A stretch of 64,000 nucleotides of DNA from Octopus vulgaris. Lineage: Eukaryota. The notes under the pieces are model-generated. The model was not told where the DNA came from, ran no database searches, and saw only the letters and a program-made list of their open reading frames with translations. The stretch is taken from the NCBI GenBank assembly GCA_951406725.2, contig OX597820.1, forward strand, positions 27,218,001 through 27,282,000. The letters are read 5' to 3'. Shown here piece by piece: positions 1 through 55,669 of the stretch. The translations under genes were made by a program, and so were the position numbers. Each line of letters starts with the position of its first letter. The first letter of the stretch is position 1.

Positions 1-1270
1 GCTGGGCATGCCGTGGTTGATGATGCGCAGACACGCGCTGAGACTGCGGCATCTCTGGCTCTATGTAGACGACGGTGAACAGGTGTGGTCGCCGTTTGTG
101 AGGCACGCTTTCCCGCAGCTCGTCTCCATGACCGAACTGCAGTCGTGGATCAAAAAGAGGCCGAGGAAGGGCGAATGGCACCGCGAGTGTCGCGTTGCTC
201 TCAAGCAACTCTGCCGTCCTGGGTCGACCTTAAGTGACTTCAACACAACCAAAGCATTCTATAGGGGTTTAGTGGAGGGGAGGTACGACGACGAGCTCGG
301 GGCGAACCTGGACGTCGACGAGGAGTACCTGACCCGCCTGTTCAGGACGACTTTCGGGCCAGGGCCCATGGACAACTTCCAGAGATCCCTGGCCTGGCAG
401 TGCTACCGAGAAGCGCTACCCGTTCGGGATAAGCTCTACAGACACGGCTCGAGAAACACGGGGCCGACCTGCCCGAGATGCGGTCAGAGCGACGAAACCG
501 TTCTGCACGCACTCGTTCAGTGTCCAACAATTTCCGACCTGTGGGCTTATGTCGAACAACTGCTGCCACGTGTGGGACGAGTCGGTTTATCAGCTGAGTC
601 TATCGTCAATATTGTCACGCCTCCTTCCTTCAAACGGGAAGGAAGAGCTATTTTCATCATCCTTGTGGCTATGGCGAAAGAATGTATCTGGTGGACGCGT
701 CTGAAAGGATTGGAGACAAACACTTTCCTCTCTGGTCAATCTCTCATCAACTTCTTCAAGTACCACTTGAAAAGGAAAGTGAGAGTAGAGAGGCAAGTTT
801 TGTCTAGCGAATGTTTTAAAAAAAGATGGGTGAATGTAGCAAGAATGGCACGTATGAATGACGAAGCCACCTTGAGCATAGTCCTATGAACCCAGAAATC
901 GAAAACAGAGAGTTGCTTATTTGCAAAAAAAAAAAAAAAAAAAGAAATATAAAATGTGACTTCATTGACCGAGGTTACCGTGGTCTTTTCCGTAGGCTTT
1001 TCTTTCCACGGGTAAACCTCACCTGTCCTCCCCTTTACACTTCATATTGACATTTCTGTGATAACGATCCCTATTGATCAATTTTTTTTTCCTATCCCCC
1101 TTTTTTTTTTAACCCCCCTTTTTTTTGTCCTCTTTCTCTCCTTTTACGATCCCTTTTGATCGAAACCCCCCCTTCCTTTTTTTTTTTTTTTTTTTAAACC
1201 TTCAAAAGAAAAGCTCTACCTTGTAATTTGTTCTATCTGTGTGCAGCCCTGTGTGGCTAATAAAGAAACA
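1..1270 (+). mobile_element. Tx1/L1-clade LINE, 3' part (copy 1; runs off the window start)
   Basis: Open ORF2 C-terminus with (G)LGMP motif and zinc knuckle CPRC-x8-H-x4-C; T-rich 3'UTR; ends AATAAAGAAACA directly on (TATC)n. Confidence 0.9.
8..889 (+). CDS. LINE ORF2 C-terminal region (post-RT plus zf-RVT-type CCHC), 5'-partial
   Basis: 293-aa uninterrupted frame: LAWQCYREALPVRDKL...CPRCGQSDETVLHALVQC...AKECIWWTR, typical of an L1/Tx1 ORF2 end. Confidence 0.85.
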   Translation: MPWLMMRRHALRLRHLWLYVDDGEQVWSPFVRHAFPQLVSMTELQSWIKKRPRKGEWHRECRVALKQLCRPGSTLSDFNTTKAFYRGLVEGRYDDELGANLDVDEEYLTRLFRTTFGPGPMDNFQRSLAWQCYREALPVRDKLYRHGSRNTGPTCPRCGQSDETVLHALVQCPTISDLWAYVEQLLPRVGRVGLSAESIVNIVTPPSFKREGRAIFIILVAMAKECIWWTRLKGLETNTFLSGQSLINFFKYHLKRKVRVERQVLSSECFKKRWVNVARMARMNDEATLSIVL

Positions 1271-1346: not shown

Positions 1347-1348
<2 letters not shown>

Positions 1349-1990
1349 CCGACCTGTGGGCTGTCACGTGTGGGACGAATCCGCCTATCGGCCGAGTCTA
1401 TCGTGAGAATTGCTCCGCCCCTTCCCTCAACCGGGAAGGCAAGGCAGTTTTCATCGTACTGGTGGCCATGGTGAAAGAATGTGTGTGGTGGACTCGAGCG
1501 AAAGGATTAGAGACAAACACTTACCTCTCTGGCCAATCGCTCATCAACTTTTTCAAGTACCACTTGAAAAGGAAGGTGAGAATGGAGAGGGAAGTTTTGT
1601 CTCGCGAAAGATTCAAAAAAAGATGGGTGAATGTTGCAAAGATGGTGCGTGCTAGTAACGAAACCATTTTGAGCATGATCCTGTAGATCGTAAAAAAGAA
1701 AGAAAGAGAGCATTTTTGACCTCATGTGTTTATTTCCTCCCTGACTGGGGTTCCCGTGGTCTTTTCTGTAGGCTTTTCTTCCCACGGATGAACCCAATCT
1801 TGTTATATCAATGTTTACACCATTATTTCTGTGATACACGATTTTCTTTTTTTCCTTTTTTTTTCCTCCTCTCGATCCCTTTTGATCGCAATCTTACATC
1901 TTTTTTTTTTTTTTCCAACCTCGAAAAGAAAAGCTCTGCATTTGTATTTGTCCCCTCTGTATTCAGCCCTGTGTGGCTAATAAAAGAAAG
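1347..1990 (+). mobile_element. Tx1/L1-clade LINE copy 2 (diverged subfamily, 5'-truncated, with indels)
   Basis: Homologous to 533-1270 (MVKECVWWTRAKGLETN...RFKKRWVNVA); different 3'UTR; ends GCTAATAAAAGAAAG then TTATCTAT. Confidence 0.88.
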
Positions 1991-1997
1991 TTATCTA

Positions 1998-2849
1998 TTG
2001 AGACTGCGACATCTCTGGCTCTATGTAGACGACGGTGAACAGGTGTGGTCGCCGTTTGTGAGGCACGCTTTCCCGCAGCTCGTCTCCATGACCGAACTGC
2101 AGTCGTGGATCAAAAAGAGGCCGAGGAAGGGCGATTGGCACCGCGAGTGTCGCGTTGCTCTCAAGCAACTCTGCCGTCCTGGGTCGACCTTAAGTGACTT
2201 CAACACAACCAAAGCATTCTATAGGGGTTTAGTGGAGGGGAGGTACGACGACGAGCTCGGGGCGAACCTGGACGTCGACGAGGAGTACCTGACCCGCCTG
2301 TTCAGGACGACTTTCGGGCCAGGGCCCATGGACAACTTCCAGAGATCCCTGGCCTGGCAGTGCTACCGAGAAGCGCTACCCGTTCGGGATAAGCTCTACA
2401 GACACGGCTCGAGAAACACGGGGCCGACCTGCCCGAGATGCGGTCAGAGCGACGAAACCGTTCTGCACGCACTCGTTCAGTGTCCAACAATTTCCGACCT
2501 GTGGGCTTATGTCGAACAACTGCTGTCACGTGTGGGACGAGTCGGTTTATCAGCTGAGTCTATCGTCAATATTGTCACGCCTCCTTCCTTCAAACGGGAA
2601 GGAAAAGCTATTTTCATCATCCTTGTGGCTATGGCGAAAGAATGTATCTGGTGGACGCGTCTGAAAGGATTGGAGACAAACACTTTCCTCTCTGGTCAAT
2701 CTCTCATCAACTTCTTCAAGTACCACTTGAAAAGGAAAGTGAGAGTAGAGAGGCAAGTTTTGTCTAGCGAATGTTTTAAAAAAAGATGGGTGAATGTAGC
2801 AAGAATGGCACATATGAATGACGAAGCCACCTTGAGCATAATCCTATGA
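1998..2849 (+). pseudogene. Truncated ORF2 C-terminus of LINE copy 3
   Basis: Coding part of ORF 1716..2849; the upstream part of that ORF is read-through of the copy 2 UTR. Confidence 0.8.
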
Positions 2850-3219
2850 ACCCAGAAATTGAAAACAGAGATTTGGTTATTTGCAAAAAAAAAAAGAAAA
2901 ATATAAAATGTGACTTCATTGACCGAGGTTACCGTGGTCTTTTCCGTAGGCTTTTCTTTCCACGGGTAAACCTCACCTGTCCTCCCCTTTACACTTCATA
3001 TTGACATTTCTGTGATAACGATCCCTATTGATCAATTTTTTTTCCTCTCCCCCTTTTTTTAACCCCCCTTTTTTGTCCTCTTTCTCTCCTTTTACGATCC
3101 CTTTTGATCGAAACTCCCCCCTTTCCTTTTTTTCTTTTTTTTTTAAACCTTCAAAAGAAAAGCTCTACCTTGTAATTTGTTCTATCTGTGTGCAGCCCTG
3201 TGTGGCTAATAAAGAAACA
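1999..3219 (+). mobile_element. Tx1/L1-clade LINE copy 3 (5'-truncated, near-identical to copy 1)
   Basis: Starts mid-ORF (TGAGACTGC) right after TATCTAT; only a few substitutions versus 39-1270; ends on (TATC)n. Confidence 0.9.
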
Positions 3220-5005: not shown

Positions 5006-5231
5006 TTTTCTATTCTAGTTACAAGGTCCGAAATTTTTGGAGAGGGGTTCAGTCGATTAGATCGACCCCAGTACGCAACCGGTACTTAATTTATCGATCC
5101 CGAAAGGATGACAGGCAAAGTCGATCTCGGCGGAATTTGAACTCAGAACATAAAGTCAGACGAAATACCTATTTCTTTAATGCCGCTAAGAATTTCGCCC
5201 GGCGTGCTAACAATTCTGCCAGCTCACCGCC
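5006..5231 (-). mobile_element. SINE B monomer (tail i) with a 13-nt tail-ii insert in the head
   Basis: Head with A/B-box-like motifs, central GTCGAC-rich body, tail i (...CCTTGT..CTAGAATAGAAAA); extra TATTTCTTTAATG at 5170-5182. Confidence 0.85.
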
Positions 5232-5239
5232 CTGATAAT

Positions 5240-5631
5240 CCTGTCAATTATAGGCACAAGGCCTGAAATTTTGGCGGAGAAGAATAGTCGATTATATCAA
5301 CACCAGTATTTCACTGGTACTTAGTTTATCGACTTCGAGAGGATGAAAAGCAAAGTCGACCTCGGCGGAATTTGAACGCAGAACGTAGCGACAGACGAAA
5401 TACCTATTTCTTTAGTACCCACAAGGGTACAGAGAGGACAAACAAGGACAGACAAACGGATTAAATCGATTATAAAGACCCCAGTGCGTAACTGGTACTT
5501 AATTTATCGACCCCGAAAGGATGAAAGGTAATGTCGACCTCGGCGGAATTTGAACTCAGAACGTAACGGTAGACAAAATATCTGTAAGCATTTCGCCCGG
5601 CGTGCTAACGGTTCTGCCAGCTCGCCGCCTT
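5240..5631 (-). mobile_element. SINE B dimer (tail-ii unit plus tail-i unit)
   Basis: Junction GAAATACC|TATTTCTTTA at 5404/5405. Confidence 0.88.
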
Positions 5632-7149: not shown

Positions 7150-8420
7150 ATGGTTAGCAACAAAAGCCTTTATAAGGTTAATACATGTAAAGCTAAACAG
7201 ATACTGGAATAGATTAATACTAATCACAGCACTTGGAAACACAAAACCCCTGGCTGAAACAGAAATACATTAACTGTAGTACAAAATCTTAACCTTCTCC
7301 CGAGAAAATGCTAAAAATAACTTATAATGGAGGCGAATACATTAAGTATATTGTAAGACAGAAGAAACAACTAATCATATTTTTGTGGTTGCTCAGTTTT
7401 AGTGAAAAATACATGCATTTATGTTTAAGACAGTGAAGACAGAGTTTAAGCTTTTATGCATAGGAAATCAGCCGAGAATAGTCGATTATATCGACACCAG
7501 TGTTTCACTGGTACTTAGTTTATCGACTTCGAGAGGATGAAAAGCAAAGTCGACCTTGGCGGAATTTGAACTCAAAACGTAGCGGCAGATGAAATACCTA
7601 TTTCTTTACTACCCACAAGGGGCTAAACACAGAGGGGGACAAACAAAGACACACAAAGAGTTTAAGTCGATTACATCGACACCAGTGCGTAACTGGTACT
7701 TAATTTATCGACGCCGAAAGGATGAAAGGCAAATTCGACCTCGGCGGAATTTAAACTCAGAACGTAACGGCAGACGAAATACCTATTTCTTTACTGCCTA
7801 CAAGGGGCTACACACAGAGGGGACAAACAAGGACTGACAAAGGGATTAAGTCGATTATATCGACCCCAGTGCGTAACTGGTACTTATTTAATCGATCCCG
7901 AAAGGATGAAAGGCACAGTCGAACTCGGCGGAATTTGAACTCAGAGCGTAGCGGCAGACGAAATACTGCTAGGCATTTCGCCCGGCGTGCTAACGTTTCT
8001 GTCAGCTCGCTAGATGTTATTGTTATAGACCGGGAAGAAAGGTGTTTCCTAGTCCGTATAACAGTCCTACCAGAATATAAAATATCCCTAAAGTAAATGC
8101 AAAAATTTCCAAATATAAAAATCGGAATATAGAGGTAATCAGAATGTAGTCGTCTCTATTTCGTGATCTTAATATTTGGATAAAACATAACGTGCCTTGG
8201 GAATGATTAACAATGATGTGCTCAACATAAATAATGTAAATCTAAAGACTTACATATATGCTCAACATATAGCAAATAGCATTATTTAACATATCGTACA
8301 AAGCACATATTATGCAGTGTGCGTTTGATGCAGTAAAAATCACAAAAACAACACAAATAGTCAACGTACTGAAGGCATACAGAGCTGCGTAATAAAAACA
8401 CGAAATAACAATAAAAATAG
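7150..8420 (+). pseudogene. Heavily decayed R4/Dong-like RLE retrotransposon 3' region, interrupted by a SINE B array
   Basis: Residual motifs EETTNHI (~7360) and DVIVIDREERCFLV..YKISLK..IEVIRM (8013-8148); followed by TAC/TAA repeats. Confidence 0.5.
7474..8010 (-). mobile_element. SINE B trimer
   Basis: Junctions at 7598/7599 and 7783/7784, period 185 bp; one head only. Confidence 0.88.
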
Positions 8421-9255: not shown

Positions 9256-9348
<93 letters not shown>

Positions 9349-9361
9349 AAGAAGAAGAAAT

Positions 9362-9915: not shown

Positions 9916-9963
<48 letters not shown>

Positions 9964-12065: not shown

Positions 12066-12624
12066 GTATAAGCCACTTCTACGCCTATTTCCTGAAAAAT
12101 ACCTCAGGAATTAGTATTTTATACCTACTGCTAGCAAAGCAAGATATTCTTATTCAAAAATCGTAACTATGGTTACAGATGGTGGGATATGTCACACTGT
12201 GATTGCATATGTTATTTTGCATATTCCTGGTGTGTCTGTCATGTTCTTCGGGGTATATTTGATATCAATAGAGAAACTTTGGTAAGGAGAATTTCGTATG
12301 TGAAGCAAACAGTACAAAGAGAGCAGATTCAATATATTTTGAGATATTAAATAGAAACGCTTGATGAGGACTAACAGAAAGAGACGGTAACAACAAATTG
12401 TAACAACTAAAATAATTCTACAATAGACATGAAGGATAGCTCGTAGGGCTAATCAAGGAAGTCACACAAAACTAAGATTACTTACATCAACAAGATCAAG
12501 TTCCCTCTCGCATTCTCCGTTTCGCTGGCCCACGGGAGCATGCAGAGAATAGGCCTGTTTACTCGTATTAGGTCCCGTCTCAGTTTATCGTAAAAATATT
12601 GTGGTTTTAATATTAGCTTCAGAT

Positions 12625-13037
12625 TTTTGGCACAAAGCCAGCAATCATGAGGGAGGGTGCAATTCGATTATCTCGACCTCAGTATTCAACTGGTAATTAT
12701 TTTATCGATCCGGAAAGGATGAAAGGCAAAGTCGACCCCGGTAGCATTTGAAATAAGAACTTAAATTCGAGAGAAATGCTGCTAAACATTTTTTTCCAGC
12801 GTGGTAGTGATTCTTATTTCTTTACTGCCCACAAGGGGCTACACACAGAGGGGACAAACAAGGACAGACAAAGGGATTAAGTCGATTACATCGACCCCGG
12901 TGCGTAACTGGTACTTAATTTATCGACCCCAAAAGGATGAAAGGCAAAGTCGACCTCGGCGGAATTTGAACTCGGAACGTAACGGCAGACGAAATAGCGG
13001 TAAGTATTTCGTCCAGCGTGCTAACGATTCTGCCATC
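12625..13037 (-). mobile_element. SINE B: tail-ii unit joined to an old tail-i copy at the second (A-box) site
   Basis: Junction GATTCT|TATTTCTTTAC at 12814/12815. Confidence 0.82.
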
Positions 13038-13062
13038 TTATTGTTGTTTTAATATTAACAAT

Positions 13063-13605: not shown

Positions 13606-13619
13606 AGATAAAAGATATG

Positions 13620-13805: not shown

Positions 13806-13971
13806 ATATTATCATAACATGTGACAATGCTACCATATATATTTTTTATTTTTATTTTTTATTTTATCTAGTTTCAGCTCACGAGCTGTGGCCATGTGAC
13901 TATGCAACAAAAACCGTTTTCTGCAACGTCAACATCAACAGTAAAAGTGCCTCAATATTGTTTTTCCTATT

Positions 13972-14382
13972 GCGGCGAGCTGGCAGAATCGTTAGTACGC
14001 CGAGTGAAATACTTAGTGGTATTTCGTTCTGAGTTCAAATTCCGCCAAGGTCGACTTTACCTTTCATCCTTTTGGAGTCGATTAAATAAGTACCAGTTAC
14101 GCACTGGGGTCGATGTAATCGACTTAATCCCTTTGTTTGTCCCCTCTATGTTTAGCCCCTTGTGGGTAATAAAGAAATAAGAAACGTTAGCTCATCGGGC
14201 AAAATGCTTAGCGATATTTCGTCTGTCTTTGTGTTCTGAGCTCAAATTCCGCCGAGGTCGACTTTGCCTTTCGTCCTTTCGAGGTCCATAAATTAAGTAA
14301 CAGTTGCGTACCGAGGTCAATCTAATCGACTAGCACTTTCCGCCAAAATTTCGGGCCTTGTGCCTAGAATACAAAAGAATAT
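13972..14382 (+). mobile_element. SINE B dimer (tail ii joined at the A-box site to a tail-i copy)
   Basis: AAAGAAATA|AGAAACGTTAGC at 14179/14180. Confidence 0.85.
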
Positions 14383-15164
14383 TGTTAGGGTACTTTTGAT
14401 GAAGAACTGTATCTTTGTTCTTTTGGTTATGCACAAGGTTTGATTATCAGCCAGATTTATACTTTTTTCTTTGGTGTGTGTTTAGACAAGTAAAATTTAT
14501 GTAGCAAAGAAACATGATCATTAGATGGGAACAAGAATTATAAATTATAGTTATTGTATTAACTCTGAAAGAATGGGTGGTAAAATAAGACTTTGACATA
14601 GAACAATAAGCACAACAACTATATATCCTAATGCTTTTCTTTTGTCCCTACCATTTTCATTATAGCTTTATAACTGTGCATGATTTATCAAGAGAAATAG
14701 AGAGCATGATTGAGAGAATAAGGAAGAGAGGGGAAGAGGTTGACAGAGGAAGGAAAGCATGCGAAAGAAAGGGAGAGAGAGGGGGTGAAGAAAGAGAAAA
14801 AGAAGGGTGGAGAGGCGAAATATCTTTCCTATTGTATTTCACTTATTTCCTAACGAAATATTCTGGAAGTTCAACTCAGAAATTTTGACAGGTTTATAAC
14901 TCGAATTCAACTATCATTTACCTTGTTAATTTTGTCCAAAATATATCACAGTGTATGCAATGTGACGCTTGATACTGCTATACAAAGTTCAGTCAACCAC
15001 CACCCGAGAGCGAGATTTCGATAATTGTTTTGGAGGACCATATATAGTTAGGGGACAATGATTTCGATAATTGTTTTAGGGGACTATATATTCGCCAGCA
15101 GACGTAGGCACACTATTGGCTTTCTTAACCTTAACTCAGTAGCATATCAAGGATGTGACAACTG

Positions 15165-15201
<37 letters not shown>

Positions 15202-15237
15202 ATCTCCAACGATAAGTCTATTGTATTACTATTTAGT

Positions 15238-15435
15238 GTGGAAAGGCAAAGGCCCAGTGATTAGAGCAGCGGACTTGCGGTCGGAGGATCGCGGTTTCGA
15301 TTCGTAGACCGGGCGTTGTGTGTTTTTATTGAGCGAAAACACCTAAAAGCTCCACGAGGCTTCGGCAGGGGGTGGTGGCGACCGCTGTTGTATTTTTTCG
15401 CCACAACTTTCTCTCGCTCTCTCTTCCTTTTACTT
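15238..15435 (+). mobile_element. tRNA-derived SINE, family C
   Basis: GGCCCAGTGATTAG A box, GGTTTCGATTC B box; homologous to 45865-46040. Confidence 0.75.
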
Positions 15436-15458
15436 GAGTAATATTGTTTTTCCAATTG

Positions 15459-15649
15459 TGGCGAGCTGACAGAAATGCGTAGCTGTATTTCGTCTGTCGT
15501 TACGTTCCGAGTTCAAATTCCGCCGAGGTCGACTTTGCCTTTCATCCCTTCAGGGACGATAAATTAAGTACCAATGGGTCGACTTAATCCCTTTGTGTGT
15601 CCTTGTTTGTCTCCTCTGTGTTTAGCCCCTTGTGGGTAGTAAAGAAATA
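15459..15649 (+). mobile_element. SINE B monomer (tail ii) with deletions
   Basis: Family match. Confidence 0.8.
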
Positions 15650-16579
15650 TTATAACTTAACTAGTACTTTATTTAATCGACCTCAGGAGGATGAACTGTG
15701 AGGTTAAACCCGGTGAGATTTGAACTTGTAACATGATGGTCTGTATCTAAACGTTACACGGCATTTTGCCCGGCATTCGTCTAATTCTTACAAACACTAA
15801 CTGATATTTATTTTATTCTTTTATCGATTACATTACTGTTTATTTTTCTCTAGCTTAACATTTTTAAAGTTTCCAAGCATTAAGAATGCTTTTACTGCCT
15901 TGTTTATATTTTACCATGTGCTTGGCGCCAGATAATTGTTTAATTTATAAACCATTTTCAATCCAATCTTTTCTCCTCAGCCTCCTCATCCTCCTGCTCC
16001 TTTTTTTTTGTCTCTGTTCTGTGCCAACAAATATACAATTATGCATCTTTTACTCCGGCATTTAATCGCCAAAATGTTAGTGTTAACTGCGGCGAATTGG
16101 CAGAGTCGTCAAAGAATTGGACTGATTTCATTCATTCTTCCTCTTTGCTTCAGAGTTCAAATAACACCGTGCGGGGGTTGATAACAGTACCAATAAAAAA
16201 CTAGGATAGATTTCTCTCTCTCTCTCACTCTCTCTTGCTTTCTTTCTTTTCGTCTATTTGTCTCTCTTCTGGAAGAAACCGATTGTGATCCGTCTTTGTG
16301 ATGGACTCCGCTACATCTAAATGTGCCCAAGGCATGCCAAACATCGCGACTGTGCCCGTACTACTCCACCGGGTCGAAAAGTGCCTAAAGCTTGCCATAG
16401 TCCCAAACGAGACTTACGAATCCACCAGAAGCTGGGATTCCAAGAACAGAAGAAATAGAAATGACTATAGCATGTATGGCATGATGCATAGTGAGGGTAT
16501 CTCTTCGGGAGTTATCCACCCTTCTCGTTTATATGTAATATTTATACTGATTCCTCACACACATACATATAGATACCGT

Positions 16580-17160
16580 AAGGTGGCGATCTGGCAGAAA
16601 CGTTAGAACGACGGGCGAAATGCTTAGCGGTATTTCGTCTGCCGTTACGTTCTGAGTTCAAATTCCGCCGAGGTCGACTTTGCCTTCCATCCTTTCGGGG
16701 TCGATTAAATATGTACCAGTTACGCACTGGGGTCGATATAATCGACTTAATCCGTTTGTCTGTCCTTGTTTGTCCCCTCTGTGTTTAGCCCCTTGTGGGT
16801 AGTAAAGAAATAGGTATTTCGTCTGCCGTTACGTTCTGAGTTCAAATTCCGCCGAGGTCGACTTTGCCTTTCATCATTTCGGGGTCGATAAATTAAGTAC
16901 CAATTACGTACTGGGGTCGATATAATCGACTTAATCCGTTTGTCTGCCCTTGTTTGTCCTCTCTATGTTTAGCCCCTCGTGGGTAGTAAAGAAATAGGTA
17001 TTTCGTCTGCCCTTATTTCTGAGTTCAAATTCCTCCGAGGTCGACTTTGCCTTTCATCCTTTCGGGGTCGATAAATTAAGTACCATGTGCGTACTGGGGT
17101 CGATCTAATCAACTGGCCACCCCAAAAAGTTTCGGGCTTTTTGCCAAGAGCAGAAAAAAA
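16580..17160 (+). mobile_element. SINE B trimer (ii-ii-i)
   Basis: One head; junctions at 16812/16813 and 16996/16997 (184-bp period); terminal unit has tail i. Confidence 0.9.
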
Positions 17161-17647
17161 TACAGATAGTGTTAATCATATCTACTTTAGTAAATGTCTG
17201 GTACTTTAATATCATCCCCAGAAGAATGAAAACAAAGCCGATCTCGACGGAATTAGAATTCATAAAATAAAGGATATTAACTAAAGATCGGGACTTAATG
17301 AGTGGAAAAAATAATATTTATCAGCTGGTGAAGACATAGTGGTGTCCATATGAAGATTTTTTGTTTTGTTTTGCAATCATGTGGTTTCGGGTTCGATTCC
17401 ACTGGAATGGAGGTGCGTGTTGGGGTAAGTGTTTTCTGGTAAATACCTTAGGATGAACAATATTTTGAGAGTGAAATTTGGAGGTAGAAAACTGCAAAAA
17501 ACGTGGCTTGTGTTTGTGTCTAAGTGTGGATGTATGCATATATATGTGTGTGTATGTGTGTGTGTGTATGCGTGTGTGTCTATATATATACTGATGTGCC
17601 TATAGATATTTGTATGTGTATTATGTGTAGGTATGCATGTATGTATG

Positions 17648-17684
<37 letters not shown>

Positions 17685-17687
<3 letters not shown>

Positions 17688-18080
17688 AAGGAGTGGCTGT
17701 GGTAAGAAGCTTGCTTCCCAACCACGTCATTCCGGGTTCAGTCTTACTGCATGGCACCTTGGGCAGGTGTCTTCTACTATCGACTCGGGCTGACCTAAGT
17801 CTTGTGAGTGGATTTGGTAGACGGAAACCAAGGAATGCCGTCGTATATATGTGTGTGTTTATGTATGGGTGTGTTTGTGTCTGTGTTTGCCCCCCACCCG
17901 CCATCGCTTGACAACCGATGTCGGTGTGTTTACGTCCACGTAACTTAGCGGTTCGACATAAGAAAACGATAGAATAAGTACTAGGTTTACAAAGAATAAG
18001 TACTGAGGTCGATTTGTTCGACTAAAGGCAGTGCTCTAGCATGGCCGCAGTCAAATGACTGAAACAAATGAAAGAATAAA
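17685..18080 (+). mobile_element. SINE A (an older degenerate copy lies at ~17370-17530)
   Basis: Family match. Confidence 0.87.
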
Positions 18081-18839
18081 ATAATATGTATATATATATA
18101 TACATATACACCCCCCCCCACACACACACATATTTGCAAACGCACATATATGCGCTCACATACATACATAAATGAAAAAAACTACCGTTTTTCTTTTTTT
18201 AGTTTTTTCATAATAATTTTTTTCACTGCAGAGTTGATCTGACTTTAGTTTCTCTAATGTTCCAAGCAATCAAATGGCTTTTAGCCAATTAACTCGGTAA
18301 CGAATAATTTCTTTTGCAACACAGGATCAGACCAGATGAAATCAATTTATGGTCTCACAGCTTTAGTGCTACGTAAAATTATTACCCACCTACTTTCACT
18401 TTCTCTCTCACCTCTCTCTCTCTCTCTCTCTATCTCCTTCGCTCTTGCTCACTCACTTTACTTCATTCACCCACTCACATTTTCACTCATACTCTTTTAT
18501 TCTCTCTCTATTTTCTCCTATAAGGCAGGCATCTATATTTACTGCTCAACGTACACAAAGCGGTTTATCTCAGAACTTAACAAGAGAAGCCTGTATGTAG
18601 GCGCTTGCTCTGGAAGAAATAGCAGCCAAATTTTATTCATGTACCCTGGTGTCTATTTTTGCTTTTAAGGGAAGCATATTTGATTATTGGTCAATCCTTT
18701 ATATAGTTTTTTTTCGTTTTTGTCAGAATACAAAATATTTTCTGAAGAGTGTTGAGAAAGGAAAAGAAAGTAAAAGAAAAAAGTGGGAACGGAAAGTAAA
18801 ACAGCGGAAGATGTAGGTGGGTGCGATGGATCACACACC

Positions 18840-19240
18840 CCAGAGCAAGTGGTGTGTTGAACCACGCCCTGCAGTAATGACCGCATTGGCGTTGCCGCGG
18901 AGAATGGCCAGTGACACTCGCTGCAGCAGAACTCATTTCTTCGACGGGCCTCCAGTATCTCTATTTTGTGGAGGAAATTGGCTGTAAGGGATCTTAGAGC
19001 ATCTGACGCCTCGACGACGACTGGCAGTAACTGATTGTAGCCGGCGAGGCCCCTGTATTTATTGATTTTTCTCTCTTCCGCGTTACGGGTGGTGCCACCA
19101 GGGTTTTCGAGCAGATGCTGCAAGGTTGGCGACGGAGAACGTGTCGCTGTAGGTCGCATGAAAGACAAAAAGCTCACAACGGGAATGCTTTGATGATGGA
19201 CCTGCTCCATTAGCATAGAGGTGGAGCTAAACAAGGGCAG
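18840..19240 (-). pseudogene. CRE-like non-LTR retrotransposon, restriction-like endonuclease C-terminus
   Basis: VFHATYSDT (W-D-A-T-like)...AEERKINKYRGL..LLPVVVEAS..FL....LLQRVSLAILRGNANAV across frameshifts. Confidence 0.72.
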
Positions 19241-19351
19241 TAACAAAAAACTGTATTATTTCCAGTTCCTATCTTAATGTCTCTTTGATTTAGACGGACA
19301 AATGTCTGAATGATGTAAACAATTGACCCTAACAACCGATCCAAAATGCCC

Positions 19352-19643
19352 TTTTACTCCTTTACTATTTTACTTGTTTCAGCCATTTGACAGTGGCCAT
19401 GCTGGAGCACCGCCATTAGTCGAACGAATCAACCCCAGGATTTATTCTTTGTAAGCCTAGTACTTATTCTATCGGTCTCGTTTGCTGAACCGCTAAGTTA
19501 CGCGGACGTAAACACACCAGCATCGGTTGACAAGCGATGTTGGGGGTACAAACACACACATAAACATACACACACACATAAACATACACACACACACATA
19601 AACATACACACACACACACATAAACATACACACACACACACAA

Positions 19644-19725
<82 letters not shown>

Positions 19726-19880
19726 GGCGGGCTTCTTTCAGTTTCCGTCTACCAAATCCATTCACAAGGCTTTGGACGGCCCGAGGCTATAGTAGAAGAC
19801 ATTTGCCCAAGGTGCCACTCAGTGGGACTGAACCCGGAGACATGTGGTTCGTAAACAAGCTACTTACCATTCCTATGCCC
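19352..19880 (-). mobile_element. SINE A with expanded CA/TA interior
   Basis: Family match. Confidence 0.88.
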
Positions 19881-20030
19881 TTCAATTTCTGTCAAAATAA
19901 TAAAGTAAAAATTACATTAAAGAAGGAAAATACAAAATCCAAAGAGATTTCTATTGGTTTACACTTACAAAAAAAAGTGTAAAATTACAATTAGTTGATT
20001 TCTATTCTTATTCATGAGGTAAAAATTATA

Positions 20031-20220
20031 GTGGAGGTGCTGGCTTAGTGGTTAAAGGATTGGATTCATAATCGTAAGATTGTGGTTTCAATTCCTAGAC
20101 TGGTGACACGCTGTTTTCTGGAGTAAAACGCTTTATTTCACGGTGCTCTTGTCCACTCGGCTGGGAAAATTGAGCAATGCTGTGACGCAAGGCGTCATAG
20201 AAACCGAAAAACCGGCTCCA
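20031..20220 (+). mobile_element. Old tRNA-derived SINE (related copy at ~22010-22250)
   Basis: TGGCTTAGTGG A box, GGTTTCAATTCC B box, followed by a conserved-domain-like segment. Confidence 0.6.
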
Positions 20221-20598
20221 TAAATCTATACAACGTGATAAGCCTAATTATACATAGGTATAAGGCATCAATTATATCAACCCTAGCAAATGACCGGCTA
20301 CCCAATTATAGTAATTTTTACTTTTATGACATTAAATTTACGTAGAGAATCTTGCTCCAAAGACACAAATTTGAAGAGTACAACGCATGCAAACAATATC
20401 GTTTGGCGTTAAATAACTAAATTAAATAATATTTCATTAATATAACACGTAATCATAAATATCCCAACACTTTTCTTTCTAAAATTTATATAAATGGTTT
20501 ACATACATCCGCTGCCAATTCTCTTAACAGGCTTACTAATTTCCATCCGTTGATTCGACTAATTGTATATTGTCTATAATACAAAGGTTTAAAATGTA

Positions 20599-20639
<41 letters not shown>

Positions 20640-20641
<2 letters not shown>

Positions 20642-21128
20642 AAAAATTAATTTACGAAGGTATCATTAATTCTATTATTATCCAATGTAACTATTTAAAA
20701 AAATGATAAGAACAGAATCAATGACACAGGCGATAGCAGGCCAAAAATATCATTAAATAGCTGAGGGATTAAAATTAATCAAAGGACATAGTAAGTACGT
20801 CTACCTGCTTGAAATAACAGTAAAAACTCTTATTAAATCGCCAAAAAAATACACTGATGAAAACTACAGAAATCAAACGAAGGCAAAATCAGGTTAAGAC
20901 AATCTACTAACATACATTTAAGTATCTGGACTCACGTGAACCGGTTTCTGCACTGGCAAAATACGCCTTAGCTTCTTCAGCACGCGTTACCATGATTAGA
21001 GACTCCCAGCTCGTCGCTTTGAAGTCTGCTGCAACTAATTCGTTTCGCGCCGAAATCCCAACAGCCATCAGTGTAAAATAATCTCGATACAATTTATGAG
21101 AAAAATAATTCACCCAAAATTAATTCAT
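20640..21128 (-). mobile_element. Putative Penelope-like terminal remnant between (TA)n tracts
   Basis: Minus-strand CGCGTG-CTGAAGA..GAAA-CCGGTT-CACGTG hammerhead-like motif at 20933-20986. Confidence 0.45.
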
Positions 21129-21151
21129 TTATATATATATATATATATATA

Positions 21152-21346
21152 TAGTTAATCCAAACAAGAAAGCACAAAAAAATACAACGCGAGGACGCGG
21201 AACAAATATAGTATTATTGGACGCCCAGAAAAGAAGGAAAGAGGGAGGGTTTAACGTTTCGAGCGGAGCTCTTCGTCGGAAACATAGGAGAAGGAAAGAT
21301 CCAGAGAAGGGAAGACAGAGGAAAAAAATCGCCAACGTGGTCACAT
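21152..21346 (-). mobile_element. Putative Penelope-like terminal remnant
   Basis: Minus-strand GTTT-CCGACGA-A-GAGC-TCC-GCTC-GAAACGTT-AAAC; sits between (TA)n and (TATG)n. Confidence 0.5.
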
Positions 21347-21752
21347 TATGTATGTATGTATGTATGTATGTATGTATGTATGTATGTATGTATGTATGTA
21401 TGGTGACAACTATACTTATCGTTCTTTCAGTTGTAAATTGCGACTAGCCACCTTATTAATTTATGATTTTCACTTCACCATTTTCGGAATCAGTCAATGT
21501 TTCCTATAATGTTCTCCATAAAACTGACAAGGTGACTTAGGTTCTTTAACCCTCGGTGACGGAGTAATAGGTCACTGAAGGAGATTTATGAAATCTGAAA
21601 TCATCGATGATGTGAGTCCATCTCACTTGCAGTTGGGAGCTTGTCTCATTTGTCAGTCGTTTGAAAAGCGATCTCACGTGGTTAAGAGTTGTTTTGACAC
21701 TTATCTCTAGCAATGCTGGTGCTGGCTAGCACCCTCAGTCATTTTTGTATGA

Positions 21753-21943
21753 CTACTCTTTTACTTGTTTCAATCATTTGACTGCGGACATGCTGGAGCA
21801 CCGCTTTTATTCTAGAAAATCGACCCCGGGACTTGTTCTTTGCAAACCTAGTACTTATTCTATCGGGATCTTTTGCCGAACCGCTAAGTTACGGGATCGT
21901 AAACACACCAGCTTCAGTTAAAAGCAATGGTGGGGGGACAAAG

Positions 21944-21977
<34 letters not shown>
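21753..21977 (-). mobile_element. SINE A, 3' half only
   Basis: Family match, breaks off in (CA)n. Confidence 0.8.
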
Positions 21978-22444
21978 TTATATAATCTATGTTCTGTGTG
22001 TATATGCATATGTCGTATTGGTTATGGTGTTACATTCGCGATCGTGAGTTTGTGGTTTCAATTCTTGGAGCGGGTTGTGCGTTGTGTTCTTGAGCATAAC
22101 ATTTCATTTAACGTTGTTCTACGATCACTTTGGCACCTGATGTGTGGCACACCGTGCACCTGTGCAGATAACGTGGATTTCATGGAGGGAGTGAAAATAT
22201 ATACAGCACATATGCAAATCATTTGTGCAAGTTGTTGTTCAGCATGAAATTGCAGGGCTGCCTTTCTCCGACTACGAGAGATTACCATCAATAAATCAAT
22301 CAATGTATGTATATATATATATGCAGATATGGCTCTTTTTATTTTGTTTTTGTTTTGTTTTTTTTTATTATTTAAAGTCTTCCTATATGGAAGGAGCTGG
22401 TTTCTCACAAAGTTACAAAGCTCCATTGTTGATATGTAGAATCC

Positions 22445-22920
22445 CTTTGTTTTATATATAGTCTAGGCACAAGGCCCGAAATTTTGGGAGAGGGGGACAG
22501 TCGATTAGATCGACCCCAGTACGCAAATGGTACTTAATTTATCGAAACTCGAAAGAATGAAAGGTAAAGTCGACCTCGGCAGAATTTGAACTCAGAACGT
22601 AGCGGCAGACGAAATACCGCAAAGCATTTCGCCCGGCGTGGTAACGTTTCTGCCAGCTCACCGCCTTTTAACGGCAGACGAAATTCCTATTTCTTTACTA
22701 CCCACAAGGGGCTAAACATAGAGAGGACAAACAAGGACAGATAAATGGATTAAGTCGATTATATCGACCCCAGTGCGTAACTGGTACTTAATTTATCGAC
22801 TTCGAAAGGATGAAAGGCAAAATCGACATCGGCGGAATTTGAACTCAGAACGTAGCGGCTGACGAAATACCGGTAAGCATTTCGCCCGGCGTGCTAACGT
22901 TTCTGCCAGCTCGCCGCCTT
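22445..22920 (-). mobile_element. SINE B pair (tail-ii unit, 20-nt body stub, full tail-i unit)
   Basis: Junction GAAATTCC|TATTTC at 22687/22688. Confidence 0.86.
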
Positions 22921-23850
22921 TGTTGGTATGTATAATTCTAAAACATGAGGAAAATATCTTATATGTTCACTGTTCTGCTTAGCGAGTGTATTGATATTAG
23001 AGTTGCTTTCCTATATGGTGTTCAGCTTCGTACCTATTGCGAATAACATAAACTGAGTCTGCCTTGTCTTCGCACGTAAAAGCGCTGCTTAAGATATTCT
23101 TACGTGATAACTTCTCCATGATACTTATTCAGAACTATATAAACTAATCCTGTATTATCCTTGGATGCACTGAGTTCTTACTCACTACAAATATTTCGTA
23201 GAATTTCAAGGAATGGCACTTAATTCTATCTTGCTATACTGCGACCATGTTGGATGATTTATTTTCAGAGGAAAGTTATCTGCAAGAAACAATATTTGTG
23301 AGTGAGAATTCGTTTCTCATTTCAATTAAGAATGTGAAGATAGAACTGAACAGCAAAATCTAATGAATAGCTGCAAATGGAGTCAGGTTTAAGTTGAACT
23401 TTTTAACACTTCTTACATATTTATGCCGTTTCGCATAACGAATTACTTTTGTGATAGCAAAATAATAAGTTAAACAAGAGATCAGATATTATATGAAATG
23501 CGAATAACACAGAAAAAATATACTTTTAGTATTTATTACAAATACACCCAAAGATTTAACAAATTACAATGTATTATATTTCAAAAGTTACATAACTAAG
23601 AATCATGGCGAATTTTGTATAAGGTTATGGAATATGGCTTCAAAGAGATTCTTAATTGGAACTGCAATGTAAAATAACTAAACGAATATAAAAATACATA
23701 GGACTTCTATTAAACATACGTACACACCTGTCTATCTATCAGTCTGTCTGCTTGCCTGTCTGTCTGTATGTATGTATGTATGGTTGTATATAGGTATGTT
23801 TGTATGTATGTATGTATGTATGTATGTATGTATGTATGTATGTATGTATG

Positions 23851-23905
<55 letters not shown>

Positions 23906-23931
23906 ATATATATATATATATATATTTGTCT

Positions 23932-24368
23932 GGAAAGTGAGAGTAGAGAGGCAAGTTTTGTCTAGCGAATGCTTCAAAAAAAGATGGGTGAATGTAGCAA
24001 GAATGACACGTATGAATGACGAAGCCACCTTGAGCATGATCCTATGAACCCGGAAAAATTAAAAACAGAGCGTTACTTACTTGCAAATAAATGTGTTAAC
24101 ATGTGACATTATTGACCGAGGTTACCGTGGACTTTTCTTTCCACGGATAAACCTTATCTGCTTCCCCCTTTTACACTTTACATCATGACATTTCTGTGAT
24201 ACACGCTCCCTATTGATCGTTTTCTTTTTCTTTCTTACCTTTTTACGATCCCTTTTGATCGAAAACTTAACCCCCATTTTTTTCTTTTTTTCTTTCCCCC
24301 AAAAAGAAAAGCTCTACTTTGTAATTTGTCCCGTCTGTGTTCAGCCCTGTGTGGCTAATAAAGAAACA
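23932..24368 (+). mobile_element. Tx1/L1-clade LINE copy 4 (short 3' fragment)
   Basis: KVRVERQVLSSECFKKRWVNVARM..., 3'UTR, AATAAAGAAACA|TATCTATCTGTC; preceded by (TATC)n(TA)n. Confidence 0.88.

Positions 24369-40820: not shown

Positions 40821-40882
<62 letters not shown>
40635..40882. repeat. (TAA)n/(CAA)n microsatellite
   Basis: Direct inspection. Confidence 0.97.
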
Positions 40883-40883
<1 letters not shown>

Positions 40884-41250
40884 CCTTTTTACTGGAAGCA
40901 CAAAGCCTCAAATTTGGGGGAGGGAAAGGGATTAAGTGGATTTACATCGATCCCAGTGCTTAACTGGTACCTTATTTAATCGACCCCGAAAGGATGAAAG
41001 GCAAAGTCAACCTCGGCGGAATTTGAACTCAGAACGTAGCGGCAGGCGAAATACCTATTTCTTTACTACCCACAAGGGGCTAAACACAGAAGGGACAAAC
41101 AAGGACAGACAAACAGATTAAGTCGATTATATAGACCCCAGTGCGTAACTGGTACTTATTTAATCGACCCCAAAAGGATGAAAGGCAAAGTCGACCCCGG
41201 GGGAATTTGAACTCAGAAAGTAAAGACAGACGAAATACCGCTAAGCATCT
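40883..41250 (-). mobile_element. SINE B dimer (ii-i), head truncated
   Basis: Junction at 41055/41056. Confidence 0.87.
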
Positions 41251-44380: not shown

Positions 44381-44809
44381 TATTTCTTTAATTTCTTTAC
44401 TGCCCACAAGGGGCTAAACATAGAGGGGACAAACAAGGACTCACGAAGGGATTAAGTCGATTGCATCGACCCCAGTGCGTAACTGGTACTTAATTTATCG
44501 ACCCCGAAAGGATGAAAGGCAAAGTCGACATCGGCGGAATTTGAACTCAGAACGTAACAGCAGACGAAATACCTATTTCTTTACTATCCACAAGGGGCTA
44601 AACACAGAGAGGACAAACAAGGACAGACAAACGGATTAAGTCGGTTACATCGTCCCCAGTGCATAATAATTGGTACTTGATTTATCGACCCCGAAAAGAT
44701 GAAAGGCAAAGTCGACCTCGGCAGAATTTGAACTCAGAACGTAACGGCAGACGAAGTACCCCTAAGCACTTCGCCCAGCTTGCTAAAGATTCTGCCAGCT
44801 CGCCGCCTT
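44381..44809 (-). mobile_element. SINE B dimer (ii-ii) with a TCTGTTTAT duplication at the flanks
   Basis: Junction at 44573/44574. Confidence 0.9.
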
Positions 44810-52125: not shown

Positions 52126-52350
52126 TTATTTCTTTACTACCCACAAGGGGCTAAACACAGAGGGGACAAACAAGGACAGACAAACGGATTACATCAACCC
52201 CAGTGCGTAACTGGTACTTATTTAAGCGACCCCGAAAGGATGAAAGGTAAAGTCGACCTCGGCGGAATTTGAACTCAGAACGTAGCGGCAGACGAAATGC
52301 CGCTAAGCATTTCGCCCGACGTGCTAACGATTCTACCAGCACGCCGCCTT
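52126..52350 (-). mobile_element. SINE B monomer (tail ii) with ~22-bp TSD
   Basis: TTTGAAACAAAA(A)TTAATAATAC at 52103-52125 and 52351-52372. Confidence 0.9.
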
Positions 52351-53760: not shown

Positions 53761-53864
53761 CCTTTTGATATTAACTCGCCTGGTACCCCAGGGTTCAATG
53801 ATCTAAACTTTCTCTTTTAAAGTAATCTAAATTAAAAGTTTATGTTCTAATCATCAGTTTAATA

Positions 53865-54268
53865 ATCCTTTCTACTATAGGTAAAAGACCTGAAATTTAG
53901 GGGAGCGGGATAGTCATCCAATTACATTGACCCCAGTACTCGACTGGTACTTATTTTACCAACCACGAAACGATGAAAGGCAAAGTCGACATCGGCGGAA
54001 TTTGAACTCAGAACATAACGGCAGACGAAATACCTATTTCTTTACTGCCCACAAGGGGCTAAACACAGAGAGGACAAACAATGACAGACAAACGGATTAA
54101 GTCGATTATATCGACCCCAGTGCGTAACTGGTACTTAATTTATCGACCCCGAAAGGATGAAAGGCAAAGTCGATCTCGGCAGAATTTGAACTCAGAACGT
54201 AACGGCAGACGAAATACTGCTTAGCATTTCGCCCGGCTCGCTAACGATTCTGCCAGCTCGCCGCCTTA
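53865..54268 (-). mobile_element. SINE B dimer (ii-i)
   Basis: Junction at 54034/54035. Confidence 0.88.
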
Positions 54269-54920: not shown

Positions 54921-55333
54921 GGACGGCGAGCTGGTAGAAATGTTAGCACGCCGGGCGAATTCGTGGCCGTATTTCGTCCGTCGTTACGTTCTGAGTTCAA
55001 ATTCCGCCGAGGTCGACTTTGCCTTTCATCCTTTCGGGATCGATAAATTAAGTATCAGTTACGCACTGTGGTCGATGTAATCGACTTAATACCTATGTCT
55101 GTCCTTGTTTGTCCCCTCTATGTTTAGCCCGTTGTGGGTACTAAAGAAATAGGTATTTCGTCTGCCGTTACGTTCTGAGTTCAAATTCCGCTGAGGTCGA
55201 CTTTGCCTTTCATCCTTTCGGGGTCGATAAATTAAATACCAGTTATGGACTGGCGTCGATGTAATCGACTTAATCCCTTTTCTGTCTTTGTTTGTTCCCT
55301 CTATGTTTAGTCCCTTGTGGGCAATAAAGAAAT
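54921..55333 (+). mobile_element. SINE B dimer (ii-ii)
   Basis: Junction at 55151/55152. Confidence 0.88.
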
Positions 55334-55669
55334 AAGGAGAGATGAGATTAGTGACAGAGGTGATGGATGAAGGTTTAGCAGTGTAGAGTGAGTCAACCGA
55401 TCAGTCCAAGTTTGAACTTTGATGCGTTATATGTATGTGTGAGAGTGTAATATATATGTACACACAAGCCCCGCCCCCGCCACACATACAGAGGCGTGTA
55501 TTATTAGCAATGGGAACATTATTACTTCAAGATATTAATAATTCGGTATATCATGCATAAAACATATATACAGTTGAAAGCCAGGAACTGCGGTATTCGT
55601 CTCGACAAAACATAACGTATTGAGGTATAGTGTTAAAAACGCAGAAATATATCAGTAAGAAATATATCA

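What the first reader, a model, noticed from the sequence alone, without database searches (positions are those of the whole stretch)
14136..24368. SINE B tail ii is the 3' end of the Tx1-clade LINE (candidate SINE-LINE partnership)
Seen: LINE copy 4 at 24325-24368 (TTTGTCCCGTCTGTGTTCAGCCCTGTGTGGCTAATAAAGAAACA) and the SINE at 14136-14179 (TTTGTCCCCTCTATGTTTAGCCCCTTGTGGGTAATAAAGAAATA) match at 37/44 positions without gaps, and both end at the same point. Both can form a small stem-loop (AGCC/GGCT in the LINE; GCCC/GGG(C/T) in the SINE) just before the (A/G)TAAAGAAA end. Known: SINEs borrow LINE machinery through shared 3' tails, mostly L2, CR1 and RTE; Tx1-clade endonucleases are often sequence-specific. 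Inference: a Tx1 family, this one or a sibling, mobilises SINE B and may give it its target specificity.
Basis: partly seen in the sequence, partly recalled or inferred. Interest (0 to 1): 0.8.

Follow-up and report, generated by a model that had tools for sequence, protein, structure and literature searches.

The report
Octopus SINE carrying a Tx1-type tail
An abundant short repeat (SINE) in this genome, likely an octopus, ends in nearly the same 44 bases as a retrotransposon that sits in TATC microsatellites, so it likely borrows the copying enzyme of that retrotransposon or a close relative (a pairing rarely reported for this enzyme group), although it does not land at the same sites.

Summary
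Observation confirmed: 37/44 ungapped identity with a common 3' end. Shuffles reach at most 27-29. All 4 LINE copies carry the tail, and 18 of 21 SINE tail-ii ends score 33-37/44 against copy 4. The LINE is L1-group (best solved relative is human L1 ORF2p; relatives have APE+RT+zf-RVT). It is site-specific for (TATC)n: 4 of 4 copies here, and the top listed loose ends in three public runs. That fits Tx1, but no named Tx1 reference could be fetched. The tail most likely passed from LINE to SINE. 0 of 21 SINE ends abut TATC, so this family does not give the SINE its target. The hairpin is weak, with no two-sided compensatory change. New: 13 of 21 SINE ends are joined to one exact site, the loop edge of a hairpin in the SINE's own head. 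A sibling Tx1-type family is the likeliest mobiliser. L1-group tails were 3 of 58 pairs in a published survey, none in animals. Repbase, Dfam and SINEBase sequences were not seen. Verdict: new variant of a known kind, interest 0.5.

The parts
24325..24368 (+). Shared 44-nt tail, LINE copy 4 (closest window LINE to the SINE tail)
   Evidence: 37/44 to the SINE at 14136 and to the SINE majority tail
23932..24368 (+). LINE copy 4: 5'-truncated, last 38 codons of ORF2 plus 3' UTR; 5' flank (TATG)n(TATC)n(TA)n, 3' flank TATCTATCTG
1..1270 (+). LINE copy 1 (runs off the window start); open ORF2 C-terminus 2-889 with zf-RVT; followed by (TATC)19
1347..1991 (+). LINE copy 2, a different subfamily (about 70% nt identity to copy 1), inserted in (TATC)n and followed by TATCTAT
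1999..3219 (+). LINE copy 3, 845/851 identical to copy 1 in the coding part, followed by about 70 TATC-type units
14136..14179 (+).
13972..14381 (+). SINE B unit with tail ii (13972-14179) joined to a tail-i unit that starts at AGAAAC in the head (14180-14381)
16580..17160 (+). SINE B trimer: head + body-tail ii + body-tail ii + body-tail i; junctions at 16812/16813 and 16996/16997
16613..16641 (+). Hairpin in the SINE head between the A- and B-box-like motifs; the recurrent junction site is the first base of its 3' arm (16629)
   Evidence: z -3.7 to -4.0 for 3 heads folded as RNA
52127..52350 (-). Monomeric tail-ii SINE with a target-site duplication; the upstream copy begins GGTATT in non-SINE DNA
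   Evidence: 14-nt exact match by script; about 22 nt with a 1-nt indel by eye
5156..5170 (-). Last 15 nt of tail ii sitting inside a tail-i SINE head, at the same junction site
12623..13038 (-). Young tail-ii unit (3.8% from consensus) joined at AGAATC to an old diverged unit; a 19-nt duplication (1 mismatch) flanks the whole
5238..5631 (-). SINE B dimer, tail ii then tail i
7480..8010 (-). SINE B trimer, two tail-ii units then a 3'-truncated unit
15458..15649 (+). SINE B monomer with tail ii and internal deletions
22459..22920 (-). Tail-ii unit + 18 nt of a second unit + full tail-i SINE; 8-nt duplication around the whole
40874..41248 (-). SINE B dimer, tail ii then tail i ending in (ATT)n
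44390..44809 (-). SINE B dimer, tail ii twice, with a target-site duplication
53860..54268 (-). SINE B dimer, tail ii then tail i, 9-nt duplication
54922..56085 (+). Two tail-ii dimers (54922-55334 and 55669-56085); the second is part of a local tandem duplication of about 750 bp, so not an independent insertion
59437..59857 (+). SINE B dimer, tail ii twice, 12-nt duplication

Best explanation
SINE B tail ii matches the last 44 bases of an L1/Tx1-group LINE that sits in (TATC)n microsatellites; the SINE likely captured this tail from a sibling family of that LINE and is likely copied by that sibling's reverse transcriptase, which is predicted to recognise the tail RNA. Shown: the homology, its common 3' end, the L1-type protein, the LINE's (TATC)n target, and that the SINE does not use that target. 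Inferred: (1) direction LINE to SINE, because the tail is shared by LINE subfamilies about 30% apart, while in SINE B it marks only the young lineage (5.8% from consensus) and older lineages carry other tails; (2) capture by template switching or recombination, as proposed for other SINE tail exchanges; (3) stringent 3'-end recognition; (4) a sibling rather than these families as the working partner; (5) a weaker step: the partner's endonuclease, or pairing of read-through RNA, favours GGTATT, which occurs in the SINE's own head and would produce the head-body-tail-body-tail multimers.
For: 37/44 against a shuffle maximum of 27-29. This lies inside the 35-61 bp, 72-95% range accepted for bivalve SINE-LINE pairs (PMC11481361, passage). 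The terminal 45 alignment columns are the best-kept part of the LINE 3' UTR across subfamilies: 36/45 three-way identity against 2-31/45 in the other UTR bins. The LINE ends without poly(A), as stringent LINEs do. Protein: zf-RVT; relatives 61-71% identical, including Argonauta hians; RT or full ORF2 of relatives closest to human L1 ORF2p (1e-50 to 1e-72, against 1e-24 to 1e-29 for R2); APE+RT+zf-RVT in relatives of 1096-1148 aa. Target: TATCTAT follows 4 of 4 copies. Loose ends at the 3' end read (ATCT)n in 116, 102 and 1 contigs of runs X1, X3 and X9. Among APE-type LINEs only Tx1 and R1 hold site-specific members (PMC13295347, passage). Terminal tail-ii SINEs carry target-site duplications of 9-22 nt at 3 of the 6 ends outside SINE B by script, with a fourth, diverged one by eye, so tail ii works as an insertion end.
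Against: No SINE end abuts (TATC)n (0 of 21), so sharing of target, the usual second line of evidence for a Tx1 partner (PMC4494074), is absent for these families. The sibling LINE with a SINE-identical tail was not found: the collection scans were empty and one search showed no SINE-type letters among its 40 listed difference rows (66 hidden). The tail hairpin is weak and lacks covariation. Most tail-ii units (15 of 21) are internal to composites, where the outer tail, not tail ii, may be what a LINE reads. Ages were not compared genome-wide. No tree with named Tx1 elements could be built.
Confidence: 0.65

Rival explanations
1. The tail is LINE-derived but is now a passenger: the SINE took it once and is spread by another, relaxed or unrelated LINE that reads the outer end of composites (tail i with its (ATT)n or (CAT)n repeats) or a simple A-rich end.
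For: 15 of 21 tail-ii units are internal. At least 5 composites end in tail i. SINE sites differ from LINE sites. The hairpin register differs between SINE and LINE.
Against: Six tail-ii ends are terminal and stop at or within a few bases of the LINE's own end, several with target-site duplications. Tail changes among SINE copies mostly keep wobble pairing, although this does not exceed the shuffles.
Confidence: 0.2
2. The (TATC)n family seen in the window is itself the partner and hands the SINE its target specificity.
For: It is the only LINE in the window with the tail, and it is young and abundant (copies 1 and 3 are 99.3% identical in coding; 12,000-16,000 contigs laid in X3 and X1). A TAT triplet lies in the first few bases of several SINE 3' flanks (seen after the fact).
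Against: 0 of 21 SINE ends abut TATC, against 4 of 4 LINE ends. About 5-6 fixed tail differences from all window copies.
Confidence: 0.12
3. For the multimers only: they form at the RNA level. SINE RNA is cut or stalls at the head hairpin loop, and the reverse transcriptase jumps (or the RNA is ligated) onto the 3' end of a tail-ii RNA. Alternatively one founding dimer spread and exchanged its outer tail by recombination. No DNA target preference is needed.
For: The junction is exactly the first base of the hairpin's 3' arm. The head is never duplicated. Duplications flank whole composites. The four tail-ii/tail-ii dimers share diagnostic letters in their second unit. Most units lack a run of four T, so Pol III read-through is possible. 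End-to-end template jumping is cited in PMC4494074.
Against: The monomer at 52350 has a non-SINE target beginning GGTATT, a word found at 2e-4 per position outside SINE B (one case, one mismatch in the downstream copy). At 13035 a young unit is joined to an old, decayed unit (108/156 identical to its nearest kin), which fits insertion into existing DNA. Downstream units belong to at least four tail-i types plus tail ii.
Confidence: 0.55
4. Reverse direction or chance: the LINE took its end from the SINE, or two AT-rich ends converged.
For: The SINE is far more abundant in the window (21 ends against 4).
Against: Chance is excluded by the shuffles. The tail is shared by LINE subfamilies much more diverged than the tail-ii SINE lineage.
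Confidence: 0.03

Closest known systems
L1-tailed SINEs ZmSINE2/ZmSINE3 (LINE1-1_ZM) and SINEX-3_CR (L1-1_CR); PMC3472496 part 1 of 3, PMC3747384 section 7 and Table 1
   Same: tRNA-type SINE sharing about 45-50 nt with the conserved 3' end of an L1-group LINE, with a predicted hairpin; read as stringent recognition
   Different: Those are plant and algal. The 58-pair table lists no animal L1 or Tx1 tail and no mollusc. Their hairpin shows compensatory changes, which this one does not. The LINE here is site-specific.
Crocodilian SINEU with Tx1-Mar (Kojima 2015, PMC4494074, parts 1, 3 and 4 of 5)
   Same: A SINE inferred to be mobilised by Tx1 elements; Tx1 families that target another repeat
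   Different: SINEU has snRNA heads and is tied to Tx1 by a shared target; no LINE sharing the SINEU-1 3' end was found. Here the reverse holds: shared tail, different target, head with Pol III A/B-box-like motifs.
Microsatellite-targeting Tx1 families Kibi (TC)n, Koshi (TTC)n and crocodilian (TTCC)n/(TTTC)n families (as described in PMC4494074)
   Same: APE-type L1/Tx1-group LINE inserted in, and piling up in, a simple repeat
   Different: The target here is (TATC)n, which is not among the targets named in the text read (Fig. 3 itself not seen); cephalopod host; placement relative to these families not tested.
Molluscan conserved-domain SINEs with exchanged tails (MetaSINEs PMC4824008; bivalve SINEs PMC11481361; PMC4758252; passages)
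   Same: tRNA-type head, a central domain directly behind it, and alternative tails from different LINEs; tandem-like SINE structures are also reported in bivalves
   Different: Reported partners are CR1, CR1-Zenon, L2 and Nimb, never L1 or Tx1. The central domain of SINE B was not matched to a published sequence: it is unlike the Lottia Nin and oyster Vhc sequences seen. A Meta-domain resemblance is recalled only.
Octopus SINEs OK, OR1, OR2 (Ohshima and Okada 1994; not seen, known from citations and recall)
   Same: Abundant tRNA-derived SINEs of Octopus; SINE B may be one of them or one of the SINE families in O. vulgaris libraries
   Different: Sequences not available here, so identity is untested; no partner LINE for them appears in the 58-pair table.

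Membership tests
SINE-LINE partner pair (shared 3' tail) | Significant homology confined to the 3' ends of both elements, same end point | tested here: met
SINE-LINE partner pair (shared 3' tail) | Tail is the conserved part of the LINE 3' UTR | tested here: met
   36/45 terminal columns against 2-31/45 in other UTR bins, three subfamilies
SINE-LINE partner pair (shared 3' tail) | Conserved stem-loop with compensatory changes | tested here: inconclusive
   11 pairs possible, only one-sided changes, weak z-scores
SINE-LINE partner pair (shared 3' tail) | Same insertion-site signature | tested here: not met
   LINE 4 of 4 at TATCTAT; SINE 0 of 21; applies to the window's LINE families, not to an unseen sibling
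SINE-LINE partner pair (shared 3' tail) | Overlapping activity periods | tested here: inconclusive
   SINE tail-ii units 5.8% from consensus (JC 0.061); LINE copies 1 and 3 are 0.7% apart, other subfamilies about 25-30%; no genome held
SINE-LINE partner pair (shared 3' tail) | Tail-dependent trans-mobilisation | not testable with these tools
   needs a retrotransposition assay
L1/Tx1 group of non-LTR retrotransposons | ORF2 with N-terminal APE, L1-type RT and C-terminal zinc-binding domain | tested here: met
   zf-RVT in the window; APE and RT only in relatives (P0497, P0501, P0006); best solved relative is human L1 ORF2p
Tx1 clade | RT groups with named Tx1 elements in a phylogeny | not testable with these tools
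   no named Tx1 protein returned; the resemblance of RT motifs to Xenopus Tx1 is recalled only
Tx1 clade | Sequence-specific insertion into a multicopy target | tested here: met
   TATC on the 3' side of all 4 copies; on the 5' side of copies 2 and 3, and just upstream of a (TA)n run for copy 4; loose ends in X1, X3, X9
tRNA-derived SINE (SINE2) | Head recognisably derived from a tRNA, with A and B boxes | tested here: inconclusive
   A- and B-box-like motifs and a GGCGG/CCGCC closing stem by eye and by folding; ARAGORN and Rfam found no tRNA
tRNA-derived SINE (SINE2) | Short, non-coding, interspersed, flanked by target-site duplications | tested here: met
   about 230-nt unit, 17 or more loci, duplications called at 7 of 14 composites examined, one of them doubtful
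Nin-DC or V/Vhc SINE superfamilies | Central domain similar to the published domain | tested here: not met
   compared by eye with the Lottia Nin and Cgi_Vhc_1 sequences in the PMC4758252 supplement
MetaSINE superfamily | 66-bp Meta domain directly behind the tRNA head | not testable with these tools
   position fits; the domain sequence was not found in readable supplements; resemblance recalled

The most novel reading that the evidence does not exclude
Tail-ii SINE B is a self-targeting SINE. It is driven by an undescribed Tx1 family whose endonuclease cuts GGTATT at the hairpin tip in the SINE's own tRNA-like head, so that even 5'-truncated insertions regain an A box from the host copy and build transcribable multimers. 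It would be an animal SINE with a Tx1-derived recognition tail, and would show that Tx1 proteins use stringent 3'-end recognition.
Probability: 0.3. Interest if true: 0.75.

Novelty: new variant of a known kind. Interest (0 to 1): 0.5.

Why it matters
SINEs are the largest or second-largest repeat class in octopus genomes (11.6% of O. vulgaris, PMC13282606), and the papers searched name no partner LINE for them. L1-group LINEs almost never donate SINE tails: 3 of 58 pairs in the survey read, all plant or algal. An animal case from the Tx1 side would support the idea that stringent RNA recognition is ancestral in the L1 group, and it gives a 44-nt element with which to test this directly. The SINE's 6% divergence is close to the SINE/LINE expansion at JC 0.065 reported for O. 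vulgaris, so the pair may name the engine of that burst (inferred; host species not established). The (TATC)n-specific LINE is a further entry for studies of how Tx1 endonucleases change target.

Tried and rejected
No whole genome is held for the window, so no genome-wide counts could be made. Scans for further DNA were all empty: related loci in metagenome, genome and viral contigs and a degenerate tail pattern in the same three collections. Five protein searches or look-ups and one atlas search returned no protein named Tx1. My first label 'Nin domain' for the SINE core was recalled and was rejected on seeing the Lottia Nin sequence; V/Vhc was rejected likewise. RNAalifold found almost no consensus structure for the mixed tails (-0.48 kcal/mol). 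Reads laid on copy 4 did not show whether a sibling LINE with a SINE-identical tail exists: 66 difference rows and 699 loose-end rows were hidden, and the summed depths are not copy numbers. RNA labels of the runs that hold the LINE are guesses, so expression is not claimed. Tail i has no LINE match in the SINE-masked window, only a further SINE end at 9957-10006. Earlier scan notes: nothing found. Ordinary tandem duplication of one element was considered for the multimers and does not explain those whose last unit has a different tail.

Full report
Observation. The LINE end at 24325-24368 and the SINE end at 14136-14179 match at 37 of 44 positions without gaps and end together. An ungapped scan of both strands with the LINE tail finds the other three LINE copies (38-40/44) and 18 SINE B ends (33-37/44), and nothing else at 29 or more. 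The SINE majority tail scores 37, 34 and 34 on copies 4, 2 and 1. Dinucleotide shuffles of those copies (2000 each) never pass 28, and 100 shuffled queries never pass 29 in the whole window. Homology ends about 44-48 nt from the 3' end.

Host. No genome is held. The closest named relative of the LINE protein is from Argonauta hians (61%), a piece of it is found in an Octopus bimaculoides gene model (83% over 16% of the query), and a cuttlefish RT is 51% identical to a relative. Runs with five coded organism labels hold 82-97% of the sampled words of copy 1. An octopus host is inferred.

The LINE. Copies 2-4 are 5'-truncated and copy 1 runs off the window; none includes the RT. The C-terminus has zf-RVT. 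Relatives 61-71% identical carry RT and zf-RVT, and longer members of related clusters add an APE domain. Their best solved relative is human L1 ORF2p, well ahead of R2. The window holds three subfamilies: copies 1 and 3 (845/851 in coding), copy 2 and copy 4. All four are followed by TATCTAT. Copy 2 has (TATC)19 upstream, copy 3 sits 7 bases behind copy 2, and copy 4 interrupts a compound TATG/TATC/TA repeat. On four public runs laid on copy 4, the listed loose ends at the 3' end read (ATCT)n in 116 (X1), 102 (X3) and 1 (X9) contigs; no row was shown at this place for X13, and 699 rows were hidden. So the family is (TATC)n-specific. A passage of PMC13295347 says that only Tx1 and R1 among APE-type clades hold site-specific members, which with the L1-type RT points to Tx1. 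No named Tx1 protein was returned by any search, so the clade is inferred. The last 45 columns are the best-kept part of the UTR across subfamilies (36/45, against 2-31/45).

The SINE. SINE B has a head of about 90 nt with A- and B-box-like motifs that folds strongly (z -3.7 to -4.0) but is not called a tRNA by ARAGORN or Rfam, then a central domain, then one of several tails. The 20 tail-ii units aligned are on average 5.8% from their consensus; tail-i units are 6-24% from it in the shared body. Tail ii is therefore a recent acquisition of one lineage, while the LINE tail predates a split of about 30%: direction LINE to SINE (inferred). The SINE tail differs from all window LINE copies at about 5-6 fixed positions, similar to the 4-6 differences between LINE subfamilies. 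The donor was probably a further sibling lineage, which I could not find.

Structure. An 11-pair hairpin is possible in both (UCU/AGA, UGUU/ARUA and an inner 4-bp stem), with the inner stem shifted by one base between LINE and SINE. Single tails fold no better than shuffles by a clear margin (z -0.05 to -1.9). Across 20 distinct tails, 95% of cells pair in the SINE register and 86% in the LINE register, but every change is one-sided and shuffles do as well. The stem-loop stays a hypothesis.

Targets. Of 21 tail-ii ends (20 plus a 15-nt remnant at 5156-5170), none abuts TATC. Thirteen are joined to GG(T/A)ATTTC, two to AGAA(A/T)C, both positions in the SINE's own head, and six end in other DNA. 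The 13 junctions lie in 11 loci, 10 of them independent, because 55669 duplicates 54925. The junction is the first base of the 3' arm of an 11-13-bp hairpin between the A and B boxes. Downstream units are of at least four tail-i types or of tail ii. Three models fit. (a) Repeated insertion into SINE B DNA with a seamless homologous 5' joint. It is favoured by the monomer at 52350, whose duplicated non-SINE target begins GGTATT (background 2e-4 per position; one case), and by a young unit joined to an old one at 13035. (b) RNA-level joining or template jumping at the hairpin loop, which explains why the head is never doubled. (c) One founding dimer whose outer tail was exchanged, favoured by shared letters in the second units of the four tail-ii/tail-ii dimers. 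I put these at roughly 0.4, 0.3 and 0.3; the window cannot separate them.

Comparison with the literature. Ohshima's survey (PMC3472496 part 1 of 3; PMC3747384 section 7 and Table 1) lists 58 pairs. Three have L1 tails (two maize, one Chlamydomonas); none is Tx1 and none is from a mollusc. Kojima 2015 (PMC4494074, parts 1, 3, 4 of 5) ties SINEU to Tx1-Mar by shared target, with no shared 3' end found for SINEU-1, and names TC, TTC, TTCC and TTTC microsatellite targets. Bivalve SINE partners are CR1, CR1-Zenon, L2 and Nimb, with matches of 35-61 bp at 72-95% (PMC11481361, passages). The O. vulgaris annotation (PMC13282606, part 1 of 3 and a term search of its supplement) lists 80 L1-Tx1 families, 13 recently active, mostly unclassified SINEs among the recently active ones, and a SINE/LINE burst at JC 0.065; it gives no partner in the parts read. 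Passages only were seen of PMC4758252 (plus section 11 part 1 and supplement passages), PMC3531059, PMC5786205, PMC7245038, PMC4824008, PMC8967140, PMC10702118, PMC5804259 and PMC13295347. Nine library searches found no description of an octopus SINE-Tx1 pair, a (TATC)n-targeting Tx1 or a self-targeting SINE. The library lacks most subscription papers. Ohshima and Okada 1994, Kojima and Fujiwara 2004, Repbase, Dfam and the SINEBase sequence files were not seen, nor file 1 of the supplements of PMC4758252 and PMC4824008, so a prior database annotation is possible.

Verdict. The shared tail is real (about 0.95) and LINE-derived (about 0.9). Mobilisation by an L1/Tx1-group family, most likely a sibling, is the best reading (0.65). 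Target hand-over from the family in the window is contradicted. This is a new variant of a known kind, with a side observation (precise self-junctions) worth a genome-wide test.

Noticed in passing
window 1-3501: Pile-up of three LINE 3' ends from two subfamilies in one (TATC)n array; (TATC)n is not among the Tx1 microsatellite targets named in the text of PMC4494074.
   Followed up: yes
13 junctions, e.g. window 16812/16813, 16996/16997, 5170-5171: Tail ii is joined to one exact base at the hairpin tip in the SINE's own head, giving head-less tandem units, dimers and trimers.
   Followed up: partly
window 8404-8932, 9257-9963, 48703-49337: A second repeat of about 600 bp, flanked on both sides by (AAT)n; it looks like the 3' end of a Dong/R4-type microsatellite-targeting LINE (label recalled, untested).
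   Followed up: no
window 6534-6945 and about 12 further loci (e.g. 33323-33745, 30259-30667, 51721-52101): A second abundant SINE-like family of about 400 bp with an internal (CA)n/(TA)n microsatellite; no match to the LINE tail.
   Followed up: no
window 9957-10006 (-), 40874 (-), 61300 (-): Tail-i SINE B copies end in (ATT)n or (CAT)n; their partner LINE is not in the window.
   Followed up: partly
window 54929-56437: Local tandem duplication of about 750 bp (SINE dimer plus about 330 bp of flank, 87% identical), with a short repeated stretch at the joint.
   Followed up: partly
window 13954-13972 and 15440-15458: Two tail-ii SINEs 1.5 kb apart share a 5' extension of about 19 nt but have different 3' flanks; possibly a subfamily from an upstream-transcribed master.
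   Followed up: no
window 5286-5404 and 7480-7598 (-): Last units of two composites 2 kb apart share many unusual letters (117/126) while their upstream units do not: a distinct subfamily or local gene conversion.
   Followed up: partly
window 4099-4404 (-): Decayed mariner-type transposase start (HTH_48, E 0.003, below the curated cut-off).
   Followed up: partly
window 18665-19255 (-): Open frame of 196 aa with no Pfam match; its end resembles the C-terminal restriction-like nuclease region of some non-LTR elements (recalled, untested).
   Followed up: no
P0005 and P0268: A piece of this LINE's ORF2 lies in an Octopus bimaculoides RhoGEF10-like gene model, and a 69%-identical piece is filed under a Herbaspirillum MAG, probably host contamination.
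   Followed up: no
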